From contig CALRFF010000001.1 of assembly GCA_943356495.1 (NCBI GenBank), forward strand, positions 193,012 through 257,011: a stretch of 64,000 nt of DNA. The letters are read 5' to 3'. The notes beneath the pieces were generated by a model, which was given only the letters and a program-made list of their open reading frames with translations, was not told the DNA's origin and ran no database searches. This document shows positions 31,711 to 48,438 of the stretch, one piece after another; position 1 is the first letter of the stretch; every line of letters starts with the position of its first letter. Source of the stretch: Candidatus Nomurabacteria bacterium (GTDB lineage: Bacteria > Patescibacteriota > Minisyncoccia > Phycocordibacterales > SBAW01). Made by a program: the position numbers and the translations under genes.

Positions 31711-31830
31711 ACCTTAAAATAAACTCTCCTCAGCTGCGGTCGCTGGACGGGTTTGGAACTGTTGATTGGAAGGCACTTGAGCGGGAAATGCAGTGGCTTA
31801 TGGTAGCGATGCCGAGGTTAGGAATAAACC

Positions 31831-32259
31831 TCAGCCGATGAATTTGTCTCTCTTTCGACCGATTATGTATGGGAACAGAATGGCAAACAAGGTCCAAGCG
31901 GATAGCAGACCGATCACCCCGTAGACCTGAGCGTTCGTACCTTGAACCATCAACTTGAGCCCCTCCCACATAAATATCACATAGACGCTGCTCGCTACAT
32001 AAAATAGATACTCCTCTACAGGTAACCCAAGAAAACGAAGCCCTATAGTTTGGCGCCGGTTAAACTGCCAGAGCCACACACGATCTTTCTTGCCGTGCCG
32101 GGTAGCCCATACATCCCAAATGCTCCCGATGATGGTAACCAGCACAATAAACGGCACGAGTGCTTGCAGGTCGATAAATCCAGAGAGGTAGAAGCCAGCG
32201 ACAATCGTTGGGGCGCAAAAGACAAAAAAGAGTGTCAGTAAGTAGTTATACTTTCGCAT
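31831..32259 (-). CDS. Lycopene cyclase domain-containing membrane protein
   Basis: PxEE(Y/F) motif (LGLPVEEYLFY) and W-rich TM pattern of the CrtYcd-type domain. No carotenoid context nearby. Confidence 0.4.
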   Translation of the reverse strand: MRKYNYLLTLFFVFCAPTIVAGFYLSGFIDLQALVPFIVLVTIIGSIWDVWATRHGKKDRVWLWQFNRRQTIGLRFLGLPVEEYLFYVASSVYVIFMWEGLKLMVQGTNAQVYGVIGLLSAWTLFAILFPYIIGRKRDKFIG

Positions 32260-32302
32260 CTACCAAATTCTACAACGGAAAACGGGACGGCCATGGGGCT
32301 GT

Positions 32303-32650
32303 CTATTTTTTAAGGGTCAAAGCGATAAGACCAAACTTTTTAATTTTCTCGGTGTAGTTAGGGAATGAGCCCCATGCATCCCTGCCATCTTGCCCGGTCT
32401 TCCAGGTAGGGTTGATTTGCTGGGGCTGGTACTTTTCGTAAATAGCGTCGATCGAGGGGAACTTCTCAACTTTAATTACCTCTTTAGTGCAGGTGTCGTT
32501 ACCGCAGGAAAAGACGATAGTATCTCCCGCCACGATGCCAGCATATTTATCGGTCGCGGCGCGGGTCTCCAGCGTCTTGCCGCCATTACAAACAAGGTCA
32601 AAGGTGTCCCGGTTTACCTCGCGAAACTCGAGCGTATGAGTCTTAGGCAT
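32303..32650 (-). CDS. ASCH (PUA-like) domain protein
   Basis: About 115 aa beta-barrel-like sequence consistent with ASCH. Overlaps the CYTH gene by 8 nt. Confidence 0.5.
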   Translation of the reverse strand: MPKTHTLEFREVNRDTFDLVCNGGKTLETRAATDKYAGIVAGDTIVFSCGNDTCTKEVIKVEKFPSIDAIYEKYQPQQINPTWKTGQDGRDAWGSFPNYTEKIKKFGLIALTLKK

Positions 32651-33245
32651 TTTTGGGTATCCGCTTTTTCTCGAGCCAGTCGGGCGTATCAGAAAAATCT
32701 ATATTGGGGCAGCGGTCGATCTCCTCGTTTTCGACGGCAAAGTATTTTGCGTAGATGCGAGCTACACCGCCAAACATCGCCTTATCCCAATCCATGCCCA
32801 ATAGCCGGGCCATCTCTTTTACATCGTTCTCGGTCGGGGCCTCTATCTCAAGAAAGGTTGGTATCCACGGCCAGGTATCTATCATGAGTTCTGTGTCGCC
32901 AAACCTCCACAGTTCTCGCTTTTTGACTTGGGTCGATTTTACCGCCATGCCAATAGCCAAGAGCATCTGCTCGGCCGCGTCAAAGGAATCCAACTTTAAA
33001 GTAATTTCTTTCATGCCCTCGACGCCCTCCTTTTCCCACTTTTTAAGTGTCAGGGTTACCTCGCCATTCTCCTCTCGGAGTCGAAGCCAAGAGGCCTGCT
33101 GATCGAGTTTGAAATCTGGGTAGTCAAAGACTTTTTGTCGAGCCAAGACCTCGGGATACACCAAAGTAGCTCCATACTGTTGGAGGTGCGACCGAACGAC
33201 ATCCGGGTCAATATCGAGGAATTTTGCTTCGATTTCTGTCTTCAT
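32643..33245 (-). CDS. CYTH domain protein (triphosphate tunnel metalloenzyme / class IV adenylyl cyclase-like)
   Basis: N-terminal EIEAKF (ExExK) signature plus downstream acidic/basic tunnel residues. Confidence 0.65.
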   Translation of the reverse strand: MKTEIEAKFLDIDPDVVRSHLQQYGATLVYPEVLARQKVFDYPDFKLDQQASWLRLREENGEVTLTLKKWEKEGVEGMKEITLKLDSFDAAEQMLLAIGMAVKSTQVKKRELWRFGDTELMIDTWPWIPTFLEIEAPTENDVKEMARLLGMDWDKAMFGGVARIYAKYFAVENEEIDRCPNIDFSDTPDWLEKKRIPKNA

Positions 33246-33284
33246 GTGAGATCAATTATAGTACGCATTATATAGAAAAAACAA

Positions 33285-33331
33285 AAGCCACCAACTGAAT
33301 GATGGCTTTCGCCTACTTCAGTTGATGGCTT
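33285..33331 (-). terminator. Rho-independent terminator (15-bp imperfect inverted repeat plus T-run on minus strand)
   Basis: AAGCCACCAACTGAA ... TTCAGTTGATGGCTT. On the minus strand it is followed by TTGTTTTTTCTATA. Sits at the 3' end of the three-gene operon. Confidence 0.4.
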
Positions 33332-33336
33332 GTAGA

Positions 33337-33984
33337 TCAGCTTTGCTCCGCGAGTTCTTGCAGGAGTTCGACCGTCTTGATGTGGTCTTCGAGGCAGTGG
33401 GTGTCTTCCATCGCCCCGTTGTTGTTGAACTCCGCGTTATCCAATGCCCCGTAGAGAGCAGTCCGCACCGCGTAGGCGCGGCTACCCTGTTTGAGCCCTG
33501 CGCGGATGAGTATGTAGGTGGCGATGTCATTGAGGATATGCTTCATCACCCACCCACTCATCTCCTCCCGCTTGAGTTCGAGCACCATCTGCAGGAGCTT
33601 GAGCCGCTCCGCCACTGGGGCTTGTTCGAGGGCTTTCTCAAAGAAGTCTGGCATATCGCACCAGTTCACCTCGTTGCCGATGATCTGCCGGACATTCTTC
33701 CGCAGCATAGTCTTCAGCGTCAGGGCAAGGTCGCCCGTCAGATGATGAATATGCTGCAGAATTGCGAGTGCCGTCTCGGGCGACAAGTAGGTAAAGACCT
33801 CCTTCTCGCCGACCTCGAACTCGCCTTCGACCGGCACATTGTCCAAGAACCAAACGAGGTTCGGGACGGTGCAATCCGCATGAGCGAACGCCTTTGGCAG
33901 GAATTCCTCATCGCGGCCGTGGAAGTACAGTGGCTTCTGGATGTCATTCCAAAAGCCGCCGTGAGCATGGACATCTCGAAACAT
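33337..33984 (-). CDS. Hypothetical protein (216 aa; N-terminal DVHAHGG metal-hydrolase-like motif)
   Basis: Long ORF with protein-like composition. The antisense ORF at 33322-34017 was judged spurious. Confidence 0.45.
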   Translation of the reverse strand: MFRDVHAHGGFWNDIQKPLYFHGRDEEFLPKAFAHADCTVPNLVWFLDNVPVEGEFEVGEKEVFTYLSPETALAILQHIHHLTGDLALTLKTMLRKNVRQIIGNEVNWCDMPDFFEKALEQAPVAERLKLLQMVLELKREEMSGWVMKHILNDIATYILIRAGLKQGSRAYAVRTALYGALDNAEFNNNGAMEDTHCLEDHIKTVELLQELAEQS

Positions 33985-34118
33985 GATAGTAGCCCCTCCA
34001 TGGGCTGTTGGAGTTAAAAAAGAACTTACTCGATGAGCCAGCAACCGAAGTTGTGGGCTCAATAGAGTGGCGCGATACCGTCGCGCCAAGCCGGAAGCAT
34101 TTTAAGTTTGCTCAAACT

Positions 34119-34487
34119 TTACGCGGCTGCGGCACTATTAACCACCTCGAAATCCTCGAATGAGAATTTGGTCCGCTTTGCCTTCAAACGGGAACCTTCG
34201 AAGTAGGGTGAGATGTACCAGATGTCAGAGCCGTAGACGTGGCGACGCGACATATCTGCGATGCTTTCGCTCTCGTAGATACGCTCATCGTGGAAGGATA
34301 CCTGCGTCACACCATCCCAACGAGGGTCGGGAGCGACGCGGATGCGGTAGTTACGAGGATTCTTTGTCTTCACCGAGTTTGGCGCGAACTTGCCAACCAA
34401 GTGCCAGACATCTCGCCATAGTCCTGTGCCTTTTCGCACCTCCTTCACTTCGAAGGTGCGGGTATCGTAGAGTTTGCGATTTCCCAT
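34119..34487 (-). CDS. Hypothetical protein (123 aa)
   Basis: ORF with an internal Met start. No recognised domain. Confidence 0.4.
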   Translation of the reverse strand: MGNRKLYDTRTFEVKEVRKGTGLWRDVWHLVGKFAPNSVKTKNPRNYRIRVAPDPRWDGVTQVSFHDERIYESESIADMSRRHVYGSDIWYISPYFEGSRLKAKRTKFSFEDFEVVNSAAAA

Positions 34488-34609
34488 CGCTGCCTCCTTG
34501 TGAATGTGCAGTTTACTCGCAAAGACTTCCACCCTTACGGGTCGTTGTCTTTGATAAGGGGCGCATTTAGTAACCGTGCGCCCAAGTCGGTTGGTCATTT
34601 GCGACCAAA

Positions 34610-34924
34610 TTAGTCGGCCAAAGTCAGCCAGCCCTTCCGGTCAGCGGTACTGAAGTACCCCTTGAACGGATGGCGATTGACCTTGCGAGCGGCCCCGCCG
34701 TGTTCCTTGCCACCAACCACGAAGACATCGTGGAGGTAGCCAGAAACATTCCAGGACTCGCCGGACCCGTCTTCCTCAGAAACCCCCGTGATGGTCGCGG
34801 TGTACTCGATCGTGCCGTGTTCCGGCTTGAACGAGACAGTGGGTTTCTGCGGCTTACGCGTGAACAGCGAAGCCATGAGGTCGAACTTGGACGGGCCGTT
34901 ATTGATGGTGATGATGGCGCTCAT
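34610..34924 (-). CDS. Hypothetical protein (105 aa)
   Basis: First gene of the three-gene operon. No recognised domain. Confidence 0.4.
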   Translation of the reverse strand: MSAIITINNGPSKFDLMASLFTRKPQKPTVSFKPEHGTIEYTATITGVSEEDGSGESWNVSGYLHDVFVVGGKEHGGAARKVNRHPFKGYFSTADRKGWLTLAD

Positions 34925-35112
34925 ACGAGCCTCCATGAAGAGCAATTCCTTTGAAGAGGTAGGAACCAAACCCCGTTATCTCTTGCGAGACCACCAATCC
35001 ATCCGGACTGGGATTACCCAGCAGTATATACCTAAACAACGCTTTTGTCAAGCCGTCAAGGGCTTGGTAAATAAGGACTTTTTGGCTCTGCAAGAGTAAA
35101 CTAAAGTACACT

Positions 35113-36333
35113 ATGGACCCCCTCCAGATACTCGAGCGGTACTTCAATACCTTCATTACCCAGGACGACCCGAAGCACTTTTTTATCGGGATGGCCGACT
35201 ACCTAAACTATGGCGATGGTGTGCCTGAGTATGACTGGATAACGAGCGAAATATCCGCTATGCCCGCAGCCCTTTTAAGTAAGTTTGAGGAGCAGAAAAA
35301 GGTGGCATTCGAAAGGGTTAGAGAAAAACATAAAGAGATAACAACAGCTATTAGAGAGAAAAATATCAACCTTCCTGCAGTAGAGAACGCGTTGGTGGAG
35401 TGTAAGCAAATCTTTGACGGACACATCTATAGCGAAACACCTGGGGCTTATATGTTGCATCTGCGGCTCTACGACATCATCCAGGCTCTTTATCAAACGC
35501 CAGAGTACCGCGAGTTTGCGTCGCAATACATCACCTTCTCAGAGCGCGACAAGACACAACCGCGGCAGTACTTGCCGATCAAAGAATTAGACGAATTGAT
35601 GAAAACAAAAGCCGAGGTTGAGCGTGGTGCCGAAGATGCTATATGGGGTATCCAAGCGCATATTTACAACCTCCGTGAGGTAATAAACCGAGGAAGAGAG
35701 ATTGGCGAAGGTATCACCGAGCGTATACAGAAACGGGAACCGGGTGCGACGCTCGATATGCTGAACTTTGGGGTTCTTATGGGCGAGTGGATGAAAATCG
35801 AAGAAGGCCGACCTGAACGCGATCCTGTTTTCTTTGTCCCTAAAAAGGTACGCCCACAGGTGCAGCGATTTCATATGTATGTTGTAGCGCACTTTACAGA
35901 AGCGCGAGCGGCAATCAATGCCGCTAAACCCATAGAAGCTCTAAAAGAATCGGTCGAGATAAAACCTGAGGTCGATAGCACTGTCGCGAAAAAACCGATC
36001 CTACTCGAGGAAAAAGGTAAGGGCTATATCAAATTCTATAAAGAGGGGCCGCGTATTCTTATCGGCAAAGTTAGCACAAAAAAGCATAAGCTGATTAAAG
36101 CACTCATAGATCCTTTGGGTACGGCAAAAAATGTAAACGTGGTATTTGACGCTATCAAAGACCGGAAGGCTGCGAGCGACATCCGACTGAAGGATACTTA
36201 TACGGCAGCAAACCGCGAGCGTGAGCTGATCGACTTCACGATGAAAGAGCTACAGAAGATAAAGGGGCTCAAGGGACGCATCTCACTTACCTACCACCAC
36301 AACAACAGCACCGTATTGCTCAATCTTGGATAA
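35113..36333 (+). CDS. Hypothetical protein (406 aa), element cargo
   Basis: Low-GC ORF. No recognisable domain. Confidence 0.5.
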   Translation: MDPLQILERYFNTFITQDDPKHFFIGMADYLNYGDGVPEYDWITSEISAMPAALLSKFEEQKKVAFERVREKHKEITTAIREKNINLPAVENALVECKQIFDGHIYSETPGAYMLHLRLYDIIQALYQTPEYREFASQYITFSERDKTQPRQYLPIKELDELMKTKAEVERGAEDAIWGIQAHIYNLREVINRGREIGEGITERIQKREPGATLDMLNFGVLMGEWMKIEEGRPERDPVFFVPKKVRPQVQRFHMYVVAHFTEARAAINAAKPIEALKESVEIKPEVDSTVAKKPILLEEKGKGYIKFYKEGPRILIGKVSTKKHKLIKALIDPLGTAKNVNVVFDAIKDRKAASDIRLKDTYTAANRERELIDFTMKELQKIKGLKGRISLTYHHNNSTVLLNLG

Positions 36334-36630
36334 CGAGAGGCGTTTTTTATCATAGGCCTGCCGCAGTACAGAGGGTTTTTGTAGTACCCTTTTGTTTTTT
36401 GTGTAAGTGGGCCTAAAAACCCTCTCAATCCCTCTGGCTCCTTTGAGCCCAGAGGGATCTTCATATTTGTTATGTGCCAGAGGATAAGCAAAAACCTAAA
36501 AAGCCGCGGCGCTCGCAGGAGGCGCAGGTCGACCCGGCTGCAACCGATAACCTCATCGGGTTCTTTGCCCAATTGCTTGAGATAGATAAGCGTCTACATC
36601 CCGAGGATTACCGAGGGGCTCAAAACCACC

Positions 36631-37752
36631 ATGCTTGATACTGTCGTACTCAATATCCCGAAGGAGCAGATACGCGAGGTTGCCGATGGTACGGCGCAGC
36701 GTTGGGACTTGCAGAGCAAAACCAGCAACTACCGTAAGCTCACAAAGAACCCACCTCGCGGCATACGCAACGATGTATACCGGCCACGGCTTACCGGCAT
36801 GGAGCGCAGTGTGGGCCACGGGCAGAAGGTATCGTTCGTCAGGGTTGAGTTCTCTGTCCCGAAGCTCCTGTTTGGCAACAACCTTGAGGAGCTGGCCGAC
36901 AAGGACTTTGAGCCGGTCGTGGAGTTGTTGTACCAGCGCCTGCTCGACTATGGCCTTATCGTCAACAAACGCGATATAAAAAACGCCGCCGTTACGACCT
37001 TCCACCCCTCTAAAAACATAGTGCTGTCGGGCGGCTGGACTGCCTCTGGTATCTCGCAAGAGCTATCAAAAATCAACCTCAATAAAAAGTTTGACCTGCA
37101 GAAAACGAGCTTCCGCAACAATGGCTGTAGCTTACAAGCGCACACGCTGGCTCACTCAGTTGTGGTATACGACAAAGTCGCAGATCTGGCACAGTCAAAA
37201 AAGAAAGCCATCGATAAAGACCAAGTACCTCGGCAGATGGCACTCTTTCAGAAGCTAAAGACGGACCAGCCATTGCTTGAGATACTGCGGCTCGAGATAC
37301 GCCTCACACAGAAGCAAAAAATCAATGCCGTACTCAAAGAGCTTGGCTTGCCTATCAACCCTACCTTTGAGCAGATATTCAAAAAAGATGTATGCCAAAA
37401 AATCGTACAGTCGTATTGGGACACAATCATCGAGGGCGAGAACTTGTTTCTGTTTAGCATCGAGAGTAGCCCTAAGAACCTGCTCAAGCGTGTCCTGCGG
37501 CAGCACCCCAAGATGCAGGCCAAGAACGCTGTCTATTTGGTTGGGCTTAACGCGCTGTGTAATGACGAGGGCGGCATACGGGAGCTTCGGGCTATATTGA
37601 CGAAACGGCAGTCACCACGAGGCTGGTATCGCATCACGGACGGCATCAGCCTGCTCAACGAGGGGCGCTCCGACCGGCACTTGCACGGCTGGGTCCGGCA
37701 GATCCGTGACGCGATTAAGAATTTTACGTCATATAGGATACGTGGGCCGTAG
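36631..37752 (+). CDS. Putative rolling-circle replication initiator (Rep_trans-like)
   Basis: VVYDK motif resembling the conserved R(I/V)YDK block of Rep_trans proteins, and an alternating basic/acidic region (LRLEIRL). Inverted-repeat-rich region upstream. Confidence 0.35.
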   Translation: MLDTVVLNIPKEQIREVADGTAQRWDLQSKTSNYRKLTKNPPRGIRNDVYRPRLTGMERSVGHGQKVSFVRVEFSVPKLLFGNNLEELADKDFEPVVELLYQRLLDYGLIVNKRDIKNAAVTTFHPSKNIVLSGGWTASGISQELSKINLNKKFDLQKTSFRNNGCSLQAHTLAHSVVVYDKVADLAQSKKKAIDKDQVPRQMALFQKLKTDQPLLEILRLEIRLTQKQKINAVLKELGLPINPTFEQIFKKDVCQKIVQSYWDTIIEGENLFLFSIESSPKNLLKRVLRQHPKMQAKNAVYLVGLNALCNDEGGIRELRAILTKRQSPRGWYRITDGISLLNEGRSDRHLHGWVRQIRDAIKNFTSYRIRGP

Positions 37753-37789
37753 GCGAAGCCGGGCAGATTTAAGAGCTAAAAAAATAACT

Positions 37790-37921
37790 ATGAAAACAAG
37801 TGAACAAAAGTTTGTGGAGCAGATACAGAAAGGGATTTCGCAGTACTATAGGCAGATGCTCTCGCGCCGTATCAAGCGCGGCATAGCGGCAAAAAGGGCT
37901 AAAAAGCTGCCCACAGCCTAA
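37790..37921 (+). CDS. Small basic hypothetical protein (43 aa)
   Basis: Short ORF between the Rep-like and Xis-like genes. Weak ribosome-binding site. Confidence 0.25.
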   Translation: MKTSEQKFVEQIQKGISQYYRQMLSRRIKRGIAAKRAKKLPTA

Positions 37922-37961
37922 AGTTGCTATGTAAACCATTGTAAAGTAATATAAAAACTAT

Positions 37962-38141
37962 ATGCCACAGGCAAAAGAATTCTACCGGGCTGAGGACTTG
38001 GCCAAAAAGCTCGACATAAACATCATGACCATCTACCGCTACATCAAGGCGGGCAAACTCAAGGCGCACAAAATAGGCAAGGAGTTCCGTATTGACCAGG
38101 CAGAGTTTACCCGCTTCCTCAAATCGACCCGCACGAAATAA
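37962..38141 (+). CDS. Excisionase/MerR-like HTH DNA-binding protein (Xis family)
   Basis: 59 aa, below the ORF-track cutoff. HTH_17 pattern (LAKKLDINIMTIYRYIKAGKLKAHKIGKEFRI). Confidence 0.55.
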   Translation: MPQAKEFYRAEDLAKKLDINIMTIYRYIKAGKLKAHKIGKEFRIDQAEFTRFLKSTRTK

Positions 38142-38143
38142 AT

Positions 38144-39124
38144 ATGGCTCAAAAAATATTAAACAAAAACCTAAATAAGGCGAGCAAAGAAAAGAAAGAC
38201 GAGTTTTATACTCAGATTATCGATATTGAGAAAGAACTGAAGCATTACAGAGATCAGTTTCGGGGCAAGGTGGTTTTCTGCAACTGCGACGACCCGAAAG
38301 AAAGCAACTTCGTAAAATATTTCAGCAGGAGTTTTGAGCACTTGAGGTTAAAGAAATTGATCGCAACACACTATAAAGACGCAAACCTATTTACTGACGA
38401 GTCGCCATACAAACTGGAATACACAGGCGATAAAAATGGTAATCGTATGCCTGACCCAAGTGAGTTTATGACCGAGATGATTGGTACTGGCGATTTTCGT
38501 AGTGAGGAATGTGTAGAGCTGCTAAAAGAGGCAGATATTGTCATAACGAACCCGCCGTTTTCGCTCTTTCGTGAGTATGTTGCGCAGCTGATGGAACACA
38601 ACAAGAAATTTCTAATTCTTGGTAATCAAAATGCCATAATCTACAAAGAAATTTTTAAGTTTGTAAAAGAAAATAATATGTGGCTTGGGTATGACAATGG
38701 TGGCACAAAATGGTTTCAAGTTCCTACAGACTACGACATACCGACTGAGTCCAGAATAAAAGTTGAAAACGGCATTAAGTTTTTCAGCATGGGGAGCATA
38801 ATGTGGTTTACAAACCTCGACACCACAAAGCGGCACGAGGAACTGATTTTGTATAAGAAATATACACCAGAAGAATATCCAAAATATGACAATTATGATG
38901 CGATTGAAGTATCAAAATTTCTTGATATTCCCATGGACTATGCTGGGGTAATGGGCGTACCGATTACTTTTCTCGACAGATATAATCCTGAACAATTTGA
39001 AATTGTAGGATCAAACCGGGGTGTGGACCAAGACCCGAATGGAGTCTACGGGCGAGGCTCGTTCTTAAATGGTAAGGAAACCTTCAAACGTTTGTTTATA
39101 AAAAATAAGAAGGTAAAAAAATAA
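38144..39124 (+). CDS. N6-adenine DNA methyltransferase, EcoRI-methylase-like family
   Basis: NPPF catalytic motif (ITNPPFSL) and upstream FCNCDDP AdoMet region. 326 aa, the same length class as M.EcoRI. Confidence 0.75.
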   Translation: MAQKILNKNLNKASKEKKDEFYTQIIDIEKELKHYRDQFRGKVVFCNCDDPKESNFVKYFSRSFEHLRLKKLIATHYKDANLFTDESPYKLEYTGDKNGNRMPDPSEFMTEMIGTGDFRSEECVELLKEADIVITNPPFSLFREYVAQLMEHNKKFLILGNQNAIIYKEIFKFVKENNMWLGYDNGGTKWFQVPTDYDIPTESRIKVENGIKFFSMGSIMWFTNLDTTKRHEELILYKKYTPEEYPKYDNYDAIEVSKFLDIPMDYAGVMGVPITFLDRYNPEQFEIVGSNRGVDQDPNGVYGRGSFLNGKETFKRLFIKNKKVKK

Positions 39125-39125
39125 T

Positions 39126-40217
39126 ATGAAAATTGATCTACATAAAATTCCTGTACGCAAAGTAGTCCTTGGATACAAAGACAGTGCTGAAGAAGGCGTG
39201 GTGGCTTATGGCGGCAAGCTTGATATTCGCCCAAAGTATCAGCGAGAGTTTGTTTACAAAGGCCATCAGCGTGATGCCGTCATTGAGACAGTTAAAAATG
39301 ACTTTCCTCTCAACGTAATGTACTGGGTAAAAAAAGATGATGGTAATTACGAGGTTTTGGACGGACAACAGCGAACTATTAGCATCGGGCAGTATGTAAA
39401 TGGAGACTTTTCACTTAATGATCGGTTTTTCCATAACTTGACCGACGAGGAACAAAAACAGATTTTAGATTATGAACTCATGATCTATTTCTGCGAAGGC
39501 ACAGATAAAGAGCGGCTGGACTGGTTTAGGATTATTAATATTGCAGGAGAAAAACTCACCGAACAAGAGCTTCGCAACGCGGTATATACCGGCCCGTGGC
39601 TTTCTGATGCAAAACTTAAATTCAGCAAAACAAATTGCGCGTCGTATCTTTTAGCAAATGATGGCGGCCAATTAGTGAGCGGCTCGCCAATTCGACAGGA
39701 GTATCTTGAGACCACACTTTCGTGGATTAACGACGCCAAGATTGAAGATTATATGGCTAAGCATCAGCATGACAAAAATGCTGAGAAGTTGTGGCAATAC
39801 TTTCGTGATGTCATCGCGTGGGTACGAAAGACATTTACGAATTACCGTAAAGAAATGGCGCACGTAAATTGGGGTGAACTATACAACCAATTTAAGGAGA
39901 AAAAACTGAGCCCTATAAAACTGGAGGCCGAGATTAAAAAGTTAATGCAGGACGAGGATGTTACAAAAAAATCTGGTGTTTATCCGTATGTTTTGACGAG
40001 ACAAGAGAAGTATCTATCTATCCGTACTTTTACTGACAAAATGAAGCGCGAAGCGTATGAGAGACAAAATGGTGTTTGCCCTTTCTGTAAGAAAAGATAC
40101 GACATTTCTGAAATGGAAGCAGATCATATTACACCTTGGCACGAAGGGGGCAAAACAATAGCTAAAAATTGTCAGATGCTCTGCAAACAAGATAACCGGA
40201 CAAAGTCGGGAAAATAG
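39126..40217 (+). CDS. DUF262 (ParB-like nuclease/NTPase) plus C-terminal HNH endonuclease fusion protein
   Basis: N-terminal DGQQR motif of DUF262. C-terminal HNH motif (CPFC...ADHITPWHEGG...NCQMLC). Confidence 0.8.
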   Translation: MKIDLHKIPVRKVVLGYKDSAEEGVVAYGGKLDIRPKYQREFVYKGHQRDAVIETVKNDFPLNVMYWVKKDDGNYEVLDGQQRTISIGQYVNGDFSLNDRFFHNLTDEEQKQILDYELMIYFCEGTDKERLDWFRIINIAGEKLTEQELRNAVYTGPWLSDAKLKFSKTNCASYLLANDGGQLVSGSPIRQEYLETTLSWINDAKIEDYMAKHQHDKNAEKLWQYFRDVIAWVRKTFTNYRKEMAHVNWGELYNQFKEKKLSPIKLEAEIKKLMQDEDVTKKSGVYPYVLTRQEKYLSIRTFTDKMKREAYERQNGVCPFCKKRYDISEMEADHITPWHEGGKTIAKNCQMLCKQDNRTKSGK

Positions 40218-40222
40218 CCCAC

Positions 40223-41749
40223 ATGAAAGCCATCATCCTTGCCAGAGTTTCGACCGAAGAGCAGCGGGACGCGGGTAATTCGCTCCCTGCTCAGATCGAG
40301 CGCTTGCAGGACTACTGCAGACGGAAGGGGCTGGATGTAATAGAAAAGTTTAGCTTCGACGAGAGCGCCTACAAAACAAAGCGCGATGAGTTTGACGATA
40401 TTCTCAAAAGCATCGAGCAAAACAAAGACAAGGTAGCGGTATGCTTCGATAAGGTAGACCGCTTTTCGCGCAATGTGTTTGATAAACGTGTTGCAATGCT
40501 CTATGACCTCGCGATGGCAGACAAGATCGAGTTGCATTTCGCCTCAGATAACCTCGTCATCACCTCAAGCATATCTGCCGTTGAGAAGTTCCACTTTGGA
40601 ATCAACCTTGGGCTTGCAAAGTACTACTCGGACGCAATCAGTGACAACACACGCCGGGCCTTTGAAAATAAGCGGCGCAATGGCGAATGGACCGGCAAAG
40701 CGCCTATCGGATACAAAAACATTCAGGATGACAAAGGAAATAAGGACATCGTACTTGATGAGGAAAGGGCGCATCTCGTGCGCCGTATCTTTGAGCTGTA
40801 CGCGACCGGCAACTACTCCATCAAGAAAGTGCGGGACCAGATTACAAAAGACGGCCTCTTGAGCACTCAGGAAGGAAAGCCGCTCGCATTAAGCATGATC
40901 GAGTACATCCTTAAAAACCCCTTCTACCATGGTATGGCTCGATCTACACGCGAGACATACGAACACAAGTACTTGCCGCTCATCACAAAGCAACTTTTTG
41001 ACCAATGCCAGCAGGTTCTACAGAGCTGGGGCAAAAAGCAGTTTCAATACGCGGCCAAGCCGTACATCTTCCGCGGCTTGTTGCGCTGCGCTCGCTGTGG
41101 CTGCTCTATGAGCCCTGAAACGGCAAAGGGTAAGTATGTCTACTACGCCTGTTCTAACGGCAAAAAGGATATATGCGACACGAAGGTCTATGTGGCTGAG
41201 AAGGACCTCCTAAAGCCCATATACGCCATCCTGGGCGCTTTGGACAAGCTCCCGCAAGAGAAGATAGACGAGGTAGTCGAGGGGCTTAAAAAGTCGCACG
41301 AGTCAAAACAGGCGTACCACGGCAATGCTCTTACTGGGTTACGCAAAGAGTACGACATGCTCCAACAAAGGTTGGACAAAATGTACCTGGACCATCTCGA
41401 CGGGCGTATTACTCAGGATGCGTATGACAAATATCTGCAACAGTTTAAAGGACGACAGCAGAACATCAACCTACTCCTTAGCGAGCATACTGATGCAGAC
41501 GAGAGCTATATAATCGCGGCTACTACAGTGTTAAATCTGGCTAAGAGGGCTTTGAGCTTGTTTGAAAGTTCCGAAGTCTTGGAAAAGCGGGCGCTTTTGA
41601 ACTTTTTACTTCAGAACTCAACCGTGGACGGCAAAAAGCCTTGCTACGCCTTGCGTTCTCCTTTTGACGCTATACTCGCTTTCGCTAAACGACCAACTGG
41701 GCTGCCAGACTTGGATTCGAACCAAGATACACTGCTCCAGAGGCAGTAG
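40223..41749 (+). CDS. Large serine recombinase (integrase)
   Basis: N-terminal resolvase catalytic domain (ILARVSTEEQ...SLPAQ), recombinase and zinc-ribbon (CxxC...CxxC) domains. 3' end runs into tRNA-Gln. Confidence 0.85.
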   Translation: MKAIILARVSTEEQRDAGNSLPAQIERLQDYCRRKGLDVIEKFSFDESAYKTKRDEFDDILKSIEQNKDKVAVCFDKVDRFSRNVFDKRVAMLYDLAMADKIELHFASDNLVITSSISAVEKFHFGINLGLAKYYSDAISDNTRRAFENKRRNGEWTGKAPIGYKNIQDDKGNKDIVLDEERAHLVRRIFELYATGNYSIKKVRDQITKDGLLSTQEGKPLALSMIEYILKNPFYHGMARSTRETYEHKYLPLITKQLFDQCQQVLQSWGKKQFQYAAKPYIFRGLLRCARCGCSMSPETAKGKYVYYACSNGKKDICDTKVYVAEKDLLKPIYAILGALDKLPQEKIDEVVEGLKKSHESKQAYHGNALTGLRKEYDMLQQRLDKMYLDHLDGRITQDAYDKYLQQFKGRQQNINLLLSEHTDADESYIIAATTVLNLAKRALSLFESSEVLEKRALLNFLLQNSTVDGKKPCYALRSPFDAILAFAKRPTGLPDLDSNQDTLLQRQ

Positions 41750-41772
41750 TCCTACCATTAGACGATCTGGCA
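41702..41772 (-). tRNA. tRNA-Gln (anticodon CTG)
   Basis: Manually folded cloverleaf with 7-bp acceptor stem (U1-A72), anticodon loop CTCTGGA, T-loop TTCGAAT and discriminator G. Confidence 0.8.
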
Positions 41773-41795
41773 ATACACAGGAACGATATCAAACA

Positions 41796-46908: not shown

Positions 46909-46984
46909 TGGAGCCAGAGGTCGGGATTGAACCGACGACCCCTTCATTACGAATGAAGTGCTCTACCAACTGAGCTACTCTGGC
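46909..46984 (-). tRNA. tRNA-Thr (anticodon CGT), CCA encoded
   Basis: Manual cloverleaf fold. Anticodon loop TTCGTAA, T-loop TTCAATC. Confidence 0.8.
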
Positions 46985-46985
46985 G

Positions 46986-47058
46986 AGCCGAAGGCCGGAA
47001 TCGAACCGGCGACCTACTCCTTACCATGGAGTTGCTCTACCATCTGAGCTACTTCGGC
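46986..47058 (-). tRNA. tRNA-Thr (anticodon GGT)
   Basis: Manual cloverleaf fold. Anticodon loop ATGGTAA, T-loop TTCGATT. Confidence 0.75.
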
Positions 47059-47159: not shown

Positions 47160-48404
47160 ATGACTCAGCCGCACCGCGCACTTTTGGCAACTCTTAGTGT
47201 CAGCGCATGGTGTGCATTTGTGCTAGCGGCATTTTTACTCCCCCGCGGAGAAGGCGTCGGACATGCCGCATTGGTGCTGGCGCTCCTTGGCGCCGCGGCG
47301 GCGGCTTTGGCGTACACCTATGCGCACTGGACGCCGGCCGCAGTACCCGAGCGCGACGAAACACTGCACCCTGAGATCGACACGGTAATTACCGACGGAC
47401 ATGTAGTGCCCGAAAGTATCCTCGCGGGGAGTGCGCCCTTGATTGCTGTGGTGCGCGAGGGCGAGCTACTCCACCCCGCCTTTGTCGATTCTTTAGCGCC
47501 GTACTTTACTGAGCGCTCGCTGGGGTTTGTACAAGCCGCCACCCGGTACGACGGCGTGGGGCGTGTGGCAGACGCATTCCGTATACAGCAAACACTGCTG
47601 CAGAACTTTGAACACGCTAAAAACTCACTTAACGCGGTAATGCTGCGCGGCAGCGGCGCGCTTATTGCGCGCGAGGCGCTCGAGCAGGCATACCGCCCCG
47701 GTATAGGGTTTGCCGAGTTGGGCTTGCGCATGCAGGCACTGGGCTATACGTCGCACGCTGAAACGCGCGCGCTAACACTTGCGTGGGCGCCGGAAACACT
47801 CGAGGAGTACTGGCCGCACCTGCTGCGCAACGCCCGACGCTCTTATACACTGCTGTACCCCGCACTGCGCACCAAAGGACTTTCCTTTGCGACACGCCTG
47901 CAGTATGCGGCTATACCAAGCGCATATACCGCGGCGGTTGCCGGCACACTGGCGCTGGTACTAACGCCGCCGGCACTGGTGCTGCGCGGCGTCGGGCCGG
48001 TCATACTGTCGGGTGCCGCACTGCCCGCACTTCTGGTGTTTGTAAGCGTATGTTTGATTGCCGCGCGTATGGTGGAAAAAATTGCCGCCGTGCCCGCAGC
48101 GCCGGTTGTGAGCTTAGTGGTGTCGGGCACTGCTCTTGCCGGGTATCGTCTTGGCTTGCTGTTCGGAAAAAAAATAAAAGTACGGGCGACCCCGCTGTTG
48201 CAAGCGGGGGCGGCGCAGTATGCAAACGCGCGGCGTGTGCTGCTTTCGGCAGCAAAAAAGCCCCAGAGGGGGCAATTTTTGCTCGCTGCGCGAGAGACGG
48301 GACTTGAACCCGCAACCTCCGCCGTGACAGGGCGGCGCTCTAACCAGTTGAGCTACTCCCGCGTGTCGGCGGAAGGACTTGCACCTTCGACCTTGGGTTT
48401 ATGA
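47160..48404 (+). CDS. Hypothetical Ala/Leu-rich membrane protein (possible degenerate glycosyltransferase-like)
   Basis: Long ORF with TM segments at both ends. Its 3' end overlaps two antisense tRNAs, so it may be spurious. Confidence 0.3.
   Translation: MTQPHRALLATLSVSAWCAFVLAAFLLPRGEGVGHAALVLALLGAAAAALAYTYAHWTPAAVPERDETLHPEIDTVITDGHVVPESILAGSAPLIAVVREGELLHPAFVDSLAPYFTERSLGFVQAATRYDGVGRVADAFRIQQTLLQNFEHAKNSLNAVMLRGSGALIAREALEQAYRPGIGFAELGLRMQALGYTSHAETRALTLAWAPETLEEYWPHLLRNARRSYTLLYPALRTKGLSFATRLQYAAIPSAYTAAVAGTLALVLTPPALVLRGVGPVILSGAALPALLVFVSVCLIAARMVEKIAAVPAAPVVSLVVSGTALAGYRLGLLFGKKIKVRATPLLQAGAAQYANARRVLLSAAKKPQRGQFLLAARETGLEPATSAVTGRRSNQLSYSRVSAEGLAPSTLGL
48290..48363 (-). tRNA. tRNA-Asp (anticodon GTC)
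   Basis: Manual cloverleaf fold. Anticodon loop CTGTCAC, discriminator G. Confidence 0.8.
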
Positions 48405-48438
48405 GTCCCATGCTCTAACTACCTGAGCTACGCCGACG
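48365..48438 (-). tRNA. tRNA-Met (anticodon CAT, elongator-type)
   Basis: Anticodon loop CTCATAA. 7-bp acceptor stem. One A-A mismatch closes the anticodon stem. Confidence 0.7.

What the first reader, a model, noticed from the sequence alone, without database searches (positions are those of the whole stretch)
38144..40217. AT-rich methyltransferase plus DUF262(ParB-like)-HNH nuclease pair on an integrative element: candidate unclassified restriction/defence module
Two tightly packed genes (stop-to-start gaps of 1-5 nt) at about 33-38% GC, inside a roughly 60% GC genome. The first is an EcoRI-methylase-family N6-adenine MTase (NPPF motif). The second fuses a DUF262 ParB/Srx-like NTP-binding domain (DGQQR) to a C-terminal HNH nuclease. 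DUF262 fused to a nuclease domain is the GmrSD-type type IV restriction architecture, but here it is paired with a methyltransferase and sits between an Xis-like gene and a serine integrase. The pair could be an R-M-like module with an NTP-dependent HNH restriction enzyme, a type IV enzyme carried with its own protective or competing methylase, or an element-stabilising addiction module. I cannot place the MTase+DUF262-HNH pairing in a named system from sequence alone, and it is strongly foreign in composition.
Basis: partly seen in the sequence, partly recalled or inferred. Interest (0 to 1): 0.75.

Follow-up and report, generated by a model that had tools for sequence, protein, structure and literature searches.

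The report
Mobile methylase–ParB/HNH nuclease restriction pair
A tightly coupled adenine methylase and ParB-like/HNH nuclease gene pair, riding on a 10-kb island inserted at a tRNA gene, belongs to a very widespread restriction-modification family that defence catalogues already list but for which I found no biochemical study.

Summary
At 38144-39124 and 39126-40217 lie an EcoRI-family N6-adenine methylase (Pfam E 4e-127) and a DUF262(ParB/Srx)+HNH nuclease, 1 nt apart. An HTH_17/Xis-like gene precedes them and a large serine recombinase follows. The GC contrast was overstated: 38.5/41.1% against 54.6%, not 33-38% against 60%.

The pair is not unclassified. PADLOC's Type II MTase and Type II REase models match both proteins full length (E 1.8e-119 and 8.9e-137).

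The pairing is strongly conserved:
- 79 of 79 evaluable nuclease-anchored genome loci have the methylase upstream.
- 66 of 73 evaluable methylase-anchored metagenome loci have the nuclease downstream.
- Nuclease relatives at only 36-38% identity, plasmids of cultured bacteria and a Flavobacterium phage also carry it.

Nuclease pseudogenes sit beside intact methylases, but no nuclease was seen without a methylase. That is restriction-modification logic, not Type IV.

An empty site in the same population bounds the island at 31738-41700, at the 3' end of tRNA-Gln.

Three features are unusual. The nuclease has a GmrSD/BrxU/SspE-like build with an invariant NTP-binding motif. It is more conserved than its methylase. 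Unrelated defence genes are often inserted between the two. I found no biochemical characterisation. The recognition site and any NTP dependence remain unknown.

The parts
38144..39124 (+). N6-adenine DNA methyltransferase, EcoRI-methylase family (326 aa). The NPPF catalytic motif is at residues 136-139 (nt 38549-38560).
   Evidence: Pfam PF13651, E 4.3e-127. PADLOC MTase_II PDLC03297, E 1.8e-119, full length. Found directly upstream of the nuclease in 79 of 79 evaluable loci.
39126..40217 (+). DUF262 (ParB/Srx-like NTP-binding) + helical middle domain + zinc HNH nuclease (363 aa). DGQQR is at residues 79-83 (nt 39360-39374). The HNH core is residues 318-357 (nt 40077-40196): C318, C321, D333, H334, N348, C353, N357.
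37962..38141 (+). Small HTH_17 / excisionase-family DNA-binding protein (59 aa), 2 nt upstream of the methylase. Probably the element's recombination directionality factor, a regulator of the operon, or both.
   Evidence: Pfam HTH_17, E 2e-11. NCBIfam TIGR01764 'excise', E 7.3e-10. A 41%-identical copy sits in the same position in L108.
40223..41749 (+). Large serine recombinase (508 aa), the island's integrase. Its last 52 nt overlap the complement of tRNA-Gln.
   Evidence: Pfam Resolvase, Recombinase and Zn_ribbon_recom. NCBIfam CcrB- and XisF-like below cut-off. 46%-identical homologues sit in the same position in L056 and L108.
41698..41773 (-). tRNA-Gln(CTG). The island is inserted at its extreme 3' end.
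   Evidence: ARAGORN. Rfam tRNA, 59.7 bits. Junction comparison with the empty site.
31738..41700 (.). Integrative island of about 9.96 kb. It is flanked by the 5-bp core GCTGC at 31733-31737 and 41701-41705, and is absent from other members of the same population.
   Evidence: Empty-site contigs L085 and L092 join window 31737 to 41701 at 100% identity with a 5-nt overlap.
36631..37752 (+). 373-aa protein with no family match, conserved in the backbone of related islands. A replication or mobilisation role is only a guess.
   Evidence: No Pfam, NCBIfam, PHROG or PADLOC hit. 34-36%-identical homologues sit upstream of the methylase in L056 and L108. Nested inverted repeats lie at 36369-36458, just upstream.
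35113..36333 (+). 406-aa island protein with no family match.
   Evidence: No hit in any library.

Best explanation
This is a mobile, two-gene restriction-modification system.

The methylase is made first because the two genes are translationally coupled. It N6-methylates adenine in a recognition sequence that is still unknown, marking resident DNA as self. The downstream protein is the restriction subunit. A zinc-stabilised HNH domain cuts DNA that lacks the mark. An N-terminal ParB/Srx-type nucleotide-binding domain, with an invariant DGQQR motif, probably gates or stimulates cleavage through NTP binding or hydrolysis, as in its structural relatives BrxU and SspE.

The cassette is AT-rich relative to its carrier. 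Here it rides on a 10-kb serine-recombinase island inserted at the 3' end of tRNA-Gln. Elsewhere it rides on plasmids and phages. It would both restrict incoming DNA and penalise loss of its carrier.

Shown:
- domain content and intact motifs;
- obligate pairing and gene order;
- mobility and island boundaries;
- structural kinship to DUF262 nucleases.

Inferred:
- that methylation blocks cleavage;
- NTP dependence;
- defence and/or addiction as the selected function.
For: - **Catalogue match.** Both proteins match PADLOC Type II MTase and REase models over their full length.
- **Pairing from the nuclease side.** The methylase is upstream on the same strand in 79 of 79 evaluable GTDB loci. In about 50 of them the gap is between -11 and +13 nt.
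- **Pairing from the methylase side.** The nuclease is downstream in 66 of 73 evaluable loci.
- **Pairing at depth.** It holds for nuclease relatives at 36-38% identity, on plasmids of cultured Mammaliicoccus and Gordonia (the other plasmid rows are), and in Flavobacterium phage laban6-1.
- **Asymmetric decay.** Frameshifted nucleases sit next to intact methylases in L103, L106, L114 and L118, and methylase-only loci exist (L119, L137, L150). No nuclease without a methylase was seen.
- **Conserved active sites.** The catalytic and NTP motifs are conserved across 69 diverse family members: Q39, R40, D79, G80, R83, N138, Q147, E148, N151, C318, H334, N348, C353.
- **Fold.** ParB/Srx N-domain plus HNH, nearest to BrxU, SspE and DndI.
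- **Regulator.** Controller-protein-like XRE HTH genes abut the methylase start in about 8 loci.
- **Co-divergence.** Methylase and nuclease identities correlate (Spearman 0.52; 0 of 300 Mantel permutations reached it).
Against: - No experiment was run, and I found no characterised homologue in the searchable literature. A 2025 survey calls ParB-CTPase-HNH fusions novel (PMC12704722).
- I could not confirm that the PADLOC model was built from a tested enzyme.
- The recognition sequence could not be inferred. No palindrome is notably depleted in 1 Mb of carrier DNA.
- The nuclease is more conserved than the methylase in 96% of pairs. To my knowledge this reverses the usual Type II pattern and fits a generic, non-sequence-reading nuclease better.
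- All characterised DUF262 nucleases are either modification-dependent (GmrSD, BrxU) or modification-sensing (SspE, DndI). None is modification-blocked.
Confidence: 0.72

Rival explanations
1. Methylase-guided, NTP-driven restriction, like Type III or Type I. The methylase supplies sequence recognition and works in a complex with a generic DUF262-HNH motor/nuclease, which does not read sequence itself.
For: - The nuclease is more conserved than the methylase in 96% of 7,021 pairs, with mean identity 0.72 against 0.59. To my knowledge, Res subunits likewise outlast Mod and S subunits.
- Some pairs are discordant, for example L046/L108 with nucleases 95% identical and methylases 57%.
- Methylase variability clusters at residues 81-110, 181-220 and 291-310. 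The last two stretches lie in the presumed target-recognition region.
- One natural methylase-nuclease fusion exists, P0146, 688 aa.
- Diverse abortive-infection-type genes are embedded between the two genes. To my knowledge this also happens in Type I loci.
Against: - EcoRI-family methylases are classical stand-alone Type II enzymes (my own knowledge).
- The single fusion could be a read-through or an assembly artefact.
- Methylases at about 60% identity may well share one specificity, which would also explain why they can be swapped.
- The nuclease has a 140-residue helical middle domain with no structural match. That domain could carry its own sequence recognition.
Confidence: 0.15
2. SspE-like sensing. 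The nuclease reads m6A marks on host DNA as a licensing signal: the mark stimulates NTP hydrolysis and a conformational switch. It then nicks or cuts unmarked invading DNA, so restriction requires the methylase rather than merely being blocked by it.
For: - SspE (DUF262 + His-Me nuclease) works this way with phosphorothioate marks and depends on the modification genes (PMC9646914; PMC12707154).
- SspE and DndI are among the nearest structural neighbours.
- The NTP-binding motif is invariant.
Against: - The decay pattern suggests the nuclease is harmful without the methylase, rather than useless. The nuclease is lost while the methylase is kept, and no nuclease was seen alone.
- The C-terminal domain is a classical zinc HNH, not DUF1524.
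- There is no direct evidence either way.
Confidence: 0.12
3. A Type IV (modification-dependent) GmrSD-like enzyme that merely travels with an unrelated, protective or competing methylase.
For: - The N-terminal Pfam family is named GmrSD_N.
- BrxU is the best multi-domain structural match.
Against: - The pairing with one particular methylase family is near-universal in both directions and holds down to 36% nuclease identity.
- The genes are translationally coupled, with a 1-nt gap or a 4-nt overlap.
- DUF1524, the defining GmrSD nuclease domain, is absent.
- To my knowledge, Type IV enzymes are normally solitary.
Confidence: 0.04
4. The mechanism is the same, but the selected role is post-segregational killing that stabilises the carrier island, plasmid or phage, not phage defence.
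For: - The pair is always found on mobile or variable DNA. Here it sits on a polymorphic 10-kb island. On Gordonia pGKT1 it sits next to RelE/Phd and Fic modules. It also occurs on small staphylococcal-type plasmids and in a phage.
- Its composition differs from that of its carriers.
Against: - The island is still polymorphic in the population, with both filled and empty sites.
- The genes embedded between methylase and nuclease are typical phage-defence cargo.
- The two roles are not exclusive.
Confidence: 0.25

Closest known systems
Type II restriction-modification systems with HNH nucleases, as catalogued in PADLOC (MTase_II PDLC03297, REase_II PDLC03418)
   Same: - A separate methylase gene and nuclease gene, adjacent, co-oriented and translationally coupled.
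- An EcoRI-family m6A methylase.
- A zinc HNH catalytic domain.
- Mobility on plasmids, phages and islands.
- Controller-like HTH genes in some loci.
- Full-length, very strong matches to both catalogue models.
   Different: - The nuclease carries a conserved ParB/Srx NTP-binding domain. To my knowledge, classical Type II enzymes have none and need no NTP.
- The nuclease is more conserved than the methylase.
- I could not establish whether any member has been tested.
GmrSD / BrxU family Type IV restriction enzymes (DUF262 + DUF1524)
   Same: - An N-terminal DUF262 ParB/Srx domain with the DGQQR motif, helical linker regions, and a C-terminal His-Me finger nuclease.
- BrxU uses nucleotides in its reaction cycle (PMC8565348).
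   Different: - The C-terminal domain is HNH PF01844 with a Cys-rich zinc site, not DUF1524.
- The protein is much shorter: 363 aa against about 580.
- It is obligately paired with a methylase, whereas the GmrSD family is described as a single-gene Type IV system that attacks modified DNA (PMC12065111).
- Overall fold similarity is low (Foldseek E 5e-3, TM 0.21).
SspABCD-SspE and DndBCDE-DndI (DUF262 nucleases partnered with a host DNA modification system)
   Same: - A DUF262 NTPase-nuclease effector genetically tied to a self-marking DNA modification module.
   Different: - The modification here is base methylation by a single enzyme, not backbone phosphorothioation by a multi-protein machine.
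- The nuclease domain is HNH, not DUF1524.
- Whether the mark activates or blocks the nuclease is untested.
Menshen NsnA and PD-T4-2 (other DUF262-containing defence proteins)
   Same: The DUF262 N-domain matches these PADLOC models: NsnA at E 8.2e-26 and PD-T4-2_A at E 2.8e-10.
   Different: - Only the N-terminal 65-130 residues match.
- The partner genes of those systems are absent.
- The full-length match is to the Type II REase model instead.

Membership tests
Type II restriction-modification system | Adjacent genes for a DNA methyltransferase and a separate endonuclease | tested here: met
   The methylase (PF13651) and the HNH nuclease are 1 nt apart. The pairing is conserved in 79 of 79 and 66 of 73 evaluable loci.
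Type II restriction-modification system | Match to curated Type II MTase and REase sequence models | tested here: met
   PADLOC MTase_II at E 1.8e-119 and REase_II at E 8.9e-137, both full length.
Type II restriction-modification system | Cleavage at or near a fixed recognition sequence, blocked by cognate methylation, with no NTP requirement | not testable with these tools
   No motif could be inferred from palindrome depletion. The invariant NTP-binding motif argues that the 'no NTP' criterion may fail.
Type II restriction-modification system | Intact catalytic residues in both enzymes | tested here: met
   The methylase has NPPF. The nuclease has D333-H334...N348...N357, with C318, C321 and C353 aligned to the Gme HNH (4h9d) catalytic and zinc residues.
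GmrSD family (Type IV) | N-terminal DUF262 domain with the DGQQR motif | tested here: met
   PF03235, E 4.6e-17. DGQQR at residues 79-83 is invariant in close homologues.
GmrSD family (Type IV) | C-terminal DUF1524 (PF07510) nuclease domain | tested here: not met
   The Pfam scan reports HNH PF01844 and HNH_5 and no DUF1524.
GmrSD family (Type IV) | Solitary enzyme that attacks modified DNA, with no cognate methylase | tested here: not met
   Biochemistry is not testable here. The genomic criterion fails: a methylase partner is near-universal.
SspE-type modification-sensing effectors | DUF262 NTPase + DUF1524 nickase encoded with sspABCD phosphorothioation genes | tested here: not met
Large-serine-recombinase integrative element | A serine recombinase with Resolvase, Recombinase and zinc-ribbon domains at one end, a precise filled-versus-empty site polymorphism, and a short crossover core | tested here: met
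   Domains. The empty site joins 31737 to 41701 through the 5-bp core GCTGC. No long direct repeats were found, as expected for serine recombinases.

The most novel reading that the evidence does not exclude
The family is a mechanistically distinct class of restriction-modification enzyme. It uses a GmrSD/SspE-type ParB-fold NTP switch fused to HNH, re-wired to attack unmethylated rather than modified DNA. It may take its sequence specificity from the partner methylase. It is spread very widely through Patescibacteria by horizontal transfer, as a cassette that also serves as a docking slot for other defence genes.
Probability: 0.35. Interest if true: 0.6.

Novelty: new member of a known kind. 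Interest (0 to 1): 0.35.

Why it matters
As it stands, this is one more copy of a common, catalogued R-M cassette on a small integrative island.

It would matter more if the ParB-fold domain proves to be an NTP switch controlling a methylation-blocked nuclease. That would link the Type IV GmrSD/BrxU enzymes and the modification-sensing SspE/DndI enzymes to classical R-M. It would also add a nucleotide-gated class to what is filed as Type II.

The family is abundant in Patescibacteria, so it may be a main line of defence there. It occurs on plasmids of cultured Mammaliicoccus, Gordonia, Aeromonas and Variovorax and in a cultured Flavobacterium phage, which makes the biochemistry directly testable.

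Tried and rejected
- **First structure prediction.** Using 22 close homologues gave a useless model (pLDDT 41.6). A 69-sequence diverse alignment was needed (pLDDT 92).
- **Attachment-site repeats.** A search for tRNA-derived direct repeats found only short chance matches. The boundaries came from an empty-site contig instead.
- **Recognition sequence.** Markov-corrected palindrome depletion in 1.02 Mb of carrier DNA showed no standout. AATT had O/E 1.01 and the lowest 6-mers were about 0.72. No inference was possible.
- **Literature.** I searched for a characterised methylase + DUF262-HNH pair using DUF262/HNH/restriction, Patescibacteria R-M, PF13651, DUF262/EcoRI and ParB/HNH/Type II. I found none.
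- **Origin of the PADLOC REase_II model.** I could not trace it from the PADLOC papers.
- **PDB sequence searches.** These gave only domain-level HNH hits and a weak BrxU hit.
- **Promoter and terminator scan.** Nothing above shuffled expectation.
- **Rfam.** Only the tRNA was found.
- **Host identification.** Cluster look-up returned no names.
- **Type IV reading.** Considered and rejected on context and domain grounds.
- **Phage-type orphan methylase.** Considered and rejected, because about 90% of close homologues have the nuclease.
Full report
**1. What is in the sequence**

Four + strand genes lie head to tail:
- a 59-aa HTH_17 / excisionase-family protein, 37962-38141;
- a 326-aa protein, 38144-39124;
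- a 363-aa protein, 39126-40217;
- a 508-aa protein, 40223-41749.

The gaps between them are 2, 1 and 5 nt.

Pfam assigns the 326-aa protein to EcoRI_methylase (PF13651, E 4.3e-127). It assigns the 363-aa protein to GmrSD_N/DUF262 (PF03235, E 4.6e-17) plus HNH (PF01844, E 5.3e-10). The 508-aa protein has Resolvase, Recombinase and Zn_ribbon_recom domains, so it is a large serine recombinase.

The composition claim was exaggerated. The methylase is 38.5% GC, the nuclease 41.1%, the whole island 48.1% and the host flanks 54.6%. The pair is nevertheless AT-rich even relative to its own island, so it is a cassette within a mobile element.

**2. The mobile element**

The recombinase gene runs 52 nt into the complement of tRNA-Gln(CTG) at 41698-41773. 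No tRNA-derived direct repeat exists, as expected for a serine recombinase.

I looked up the neighbouring PGA_cap protein and found contigs from the same population without the island. L085 and L092 join window 31737 directly to 41701 at 100% identity, sharing a 5-nt core, GCTGC. The island is therefore about 9.96 kb (31738-41700). It is inserted at the last bases of the tRNA acceptor stem and is polymorphic in the population.

Its left half carries six minus-strand genes of near-host GC: a lycopene-cyclase-like membrane protein, an ASCH protein, a CYTH protein and three with no family match. Its right half is orf406, orf373, the HTH gene, the methylase, the nuclease and the recombinase. Homologues of orf373, the HTH protein and the recombinase (34-46% identity) flank the same pair in L056 and L108. 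This island backbone therefore recurs.

**3. Is the pair a unit?**

The top 120 were all 83-90% identical, mostly from Patescibacteria MAGs. A scan of GTDB species genomes found at least 552 matches. In all 79 of the 80 fetched loci that have upstream sequence, an EcoRI-family methylase lies upstream on the same strand. In about 50 of them the gap is between -11 and +13 nt.

*From the methylase side.* Of 73 evaluable metagenome loci, 66 have the nuclease downstream. Three loci (L119, L137, L150) have 4 kb of room and no nuclease. In four loci (L103, L106, L114, L118) the nuclease is split across reading frames while the methylase is intact.

*At depth.* Nuclease relatives at 36-38% identity still have the methylase directly upstream.

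*In cultured organisms.* The pair is on 44 plasmids, including Mammaliicoccus sciuri pH8C110P-cfr and Gordonia sp. KTR9 pGKT1, and in Flavobacterium phage laban6-1.

No nuclease was seen without a methylase, whereas methylases do outlive nucleases. This is the signature of a system in which the methylase protects against its partner.

**4. Classification**

PADLOC's Type II models match both proteins end to end: MTase_II PDLC03297 at E 1.8e-119 and REase_II PDLC03418 at E 8.9e-137. DUF262 defence models (NsnA, PD-T4-2) match only the N-domain. The pair is therefore catalogued as Type II R-M.

It is not a GmrSD-family member. The defining DUF1524 domain is absent, and the family's solitary, modification-dependent lifestyle is contradicted by the context. 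NCBI annotation names the proteins only generically.

I found no paper that characterises such a pair. A 2025 survey of the ParB-CTPase fold lists HNH fusions as novel (PMC12704722).

**5. The nuclease**

With a diverse 69-sequence alignment, AlphaFold gave pLDDT 92. The model has three parts:
- a ParB/Srx-like α/β domain, about residues 1-155;
- a helical region, about residues 157-300;
- a ββα-metal HNH domain, residues 304-363.

Across the family the following are invariant or nearly so:
- Q39 and R40;
- D79, G80, Q81, Q82 and R83;
- N138, Q147, E148 and N151;
- C318, H334, N348 and C353.

Alignment to Gme HNH (4h9d) maps D333/H334, N348 and N357 onto its catalytic residues. It maps C318, C321 and C353 onto its zinc ligands. 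The fourth zinc ligand is Cys in most of the family and Asp356 in this clade. Both the NTP site and the nuclease site are therefore under selection.

**6. Unusual features**

(a) *The nuclease is more conserved than the methylase.* Over 119 pairs, mean pairwise identity is 0.72 against 0.59, and the nuclease is the more conserved in 96% of comparisons. Nuclease genes are only 71-79% identical to the window gene at nucleotide level while 77-87% identical as protein. This reflects purifying selection, not just recent transfer.

(b) *The two genes co-diverge overall, but with exceptions.* The correlation is Spearman 0.52, reached by 0 of 300 Mantel permutations. Discordant pairs exist, such as L046/L108 with nucleases 95% identical and methylases 57%. 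This implies methylase swapping.

(c) *Methylase variability is clustered.* It concentrates at residues 81-110, 181-220 and 291-310.

(d) *Unrelated genes are inserted between the two.* In about 27 of 79 loci, 0.35-4.4 kb separates methylase and nuclease. The inserted genes include DUF2130, RhuM, T5orf172, SMC-like and AAA_15/21 ATPases, Fic, Bro-N and a second methylase.

(e) *One 688-aa natural fusion exists.* P0146 joins methylase and nuclease, but it may be an artefact.

These features fit a generic nuclease served by interchangeable methylases at least as well as they fit a classical sequence-reading Type II enzyme. They are the basis for the rival and novel readings.

**7. Mechanism and confidence**

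My best explanation (0.72) is an R-M system. The methylase marks self DNA. The DUF262-HNH protein restricts unmarked DNA, probably under NTP control.

The rivals, whose scores are not meant to sum to one, are:
- methylase-guided, Type III-like restriction (0.15);
- SspE-like mark sensing (0.12);
- a Type IV enzyme with an unrelated methylase (0.04);
- the same mechanism, but selected mainly for stabilising its carrier (0.25).

The recognition site is unknown. Palindrome depletion in 1 Mb of carrier DNA gave no signal.

**8. Verdict**

'Unclassified' is wrong: this is a new member of a widespread family already catalogued as Type II R-M, carried on a well-defined tRNA-Gln island. The remaining interest lies in the family's untested biochemistry. 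A GmrSD-like NTP-switch nuclease working in the modification-blocked direction would be a new variant of R-M, and it is directly testable in the cultured hosts listed above.

Noticed in passing
window 31733-31737 and 41701-41705; L085 11009-11013: The island's crossover core is the 5-bp GCTGC, at the very end of the tRNA-Gln acceptor stem. In the filled site the tRNA gene ends ...GGCAGCCCA. In the empty site it ends ...GGCAGCTGAGG. Insertion therefore changes the base after the acceptor stem and adds an encoded CCA.
   Followed up: partly
window 41698-41749: The last 17 codons of the serine recombinase gene are read from the complement of tRNA-Gln. The integrated and excised forms of the element should therefore encode recombinases with different C-termini.
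   Followed up: no
L009, L013, L016, L022, L027, L028, L043, L046, L048, L054, L057, L058, L060, L062, L063, L065, L073, L074, L076-L078, L080, L082 (between the methylase and nuclease genes): The methylase-nuclease intergenic position acts as a slot for unrelated cargo. The cargo includes DUF2130 (3 loci), RhuM (2), a T5orf172-type 200-aa protein (4), Fic, an SMC-like 927-aa ATPase, an AAA_15/21 ATPase, Bro-N and small membrane proteins. To my knowledge this resembles genes embedded in Type I R-M loci.
   Followed up: partly
119 methylase/nuclease pairs from L005-L176: The nuclease is more conserved than its methylase in 96% of pairwise comparisons. To my knowledge this reverses the usual Type II pattern. 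A few pairs have near-identical nucleases with about 57%-identical methylases (L046/L108).
   Followed up: partly
L013, L020, L023, L044, L050, L055, L066, L081 (directly upstream of the methylase start): A conserved XRE-type HTH protein of about 70 aa ends 3-5 nt before the methylase start in these loci. It looks like an R-M controller (C) protein. The window has an HTH_17 protein in that position instead.
   Followed up: partly
L103, L106, L114, L118: The nuclease gene is split across two reading frames (a likely pseudogene) while the adjacent methylase is intact.
   Followed up: no
window 36369-36458: Nested inverted repeats built on CAGAGGG(T/A)T lie in the 298-nt gap upstream of the unassigned 373-aa island gene (AGAGGGTTTTT/AAAAACCCTCT and ATCCCTCTGG/CCAGAGGGAT). 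They might be an origin or an operator.
   Followed up: no
window 31831-34969 (minus strand): The left third of the island has near-host GC (52%). It carries a lycopene-cyclase-like membrane protein, an ASCH protein, a CYTH protein and three proteins with no family. The island may be composite.
   Followed up: no
window 46909-47058 and 48288-48437: Two pairs of tRNA genes abut with no spacer: tRNA-Thr(CGT)/tRNA-Thr(GGT) and tRNA-Asp/tRNA-Met.
   Followed up: no
P0146 (688 aa): A single predicted protein fuses the EcoRI-type methylase to the DUF262-HNH nuclease through a 23-residue linker that looks like translated intergenic sequence. It could be a real fusion or a read-through artefact.
   Followed up: partly
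L088 and L003 (both sample ERZ27280224): In this sample the chromosomal contig breaks inside the island's recombinase gene, and the island's right half assembles as a separate 6-kb contig. This fits a population that mixes filled and empty sites.
   Followed up: no
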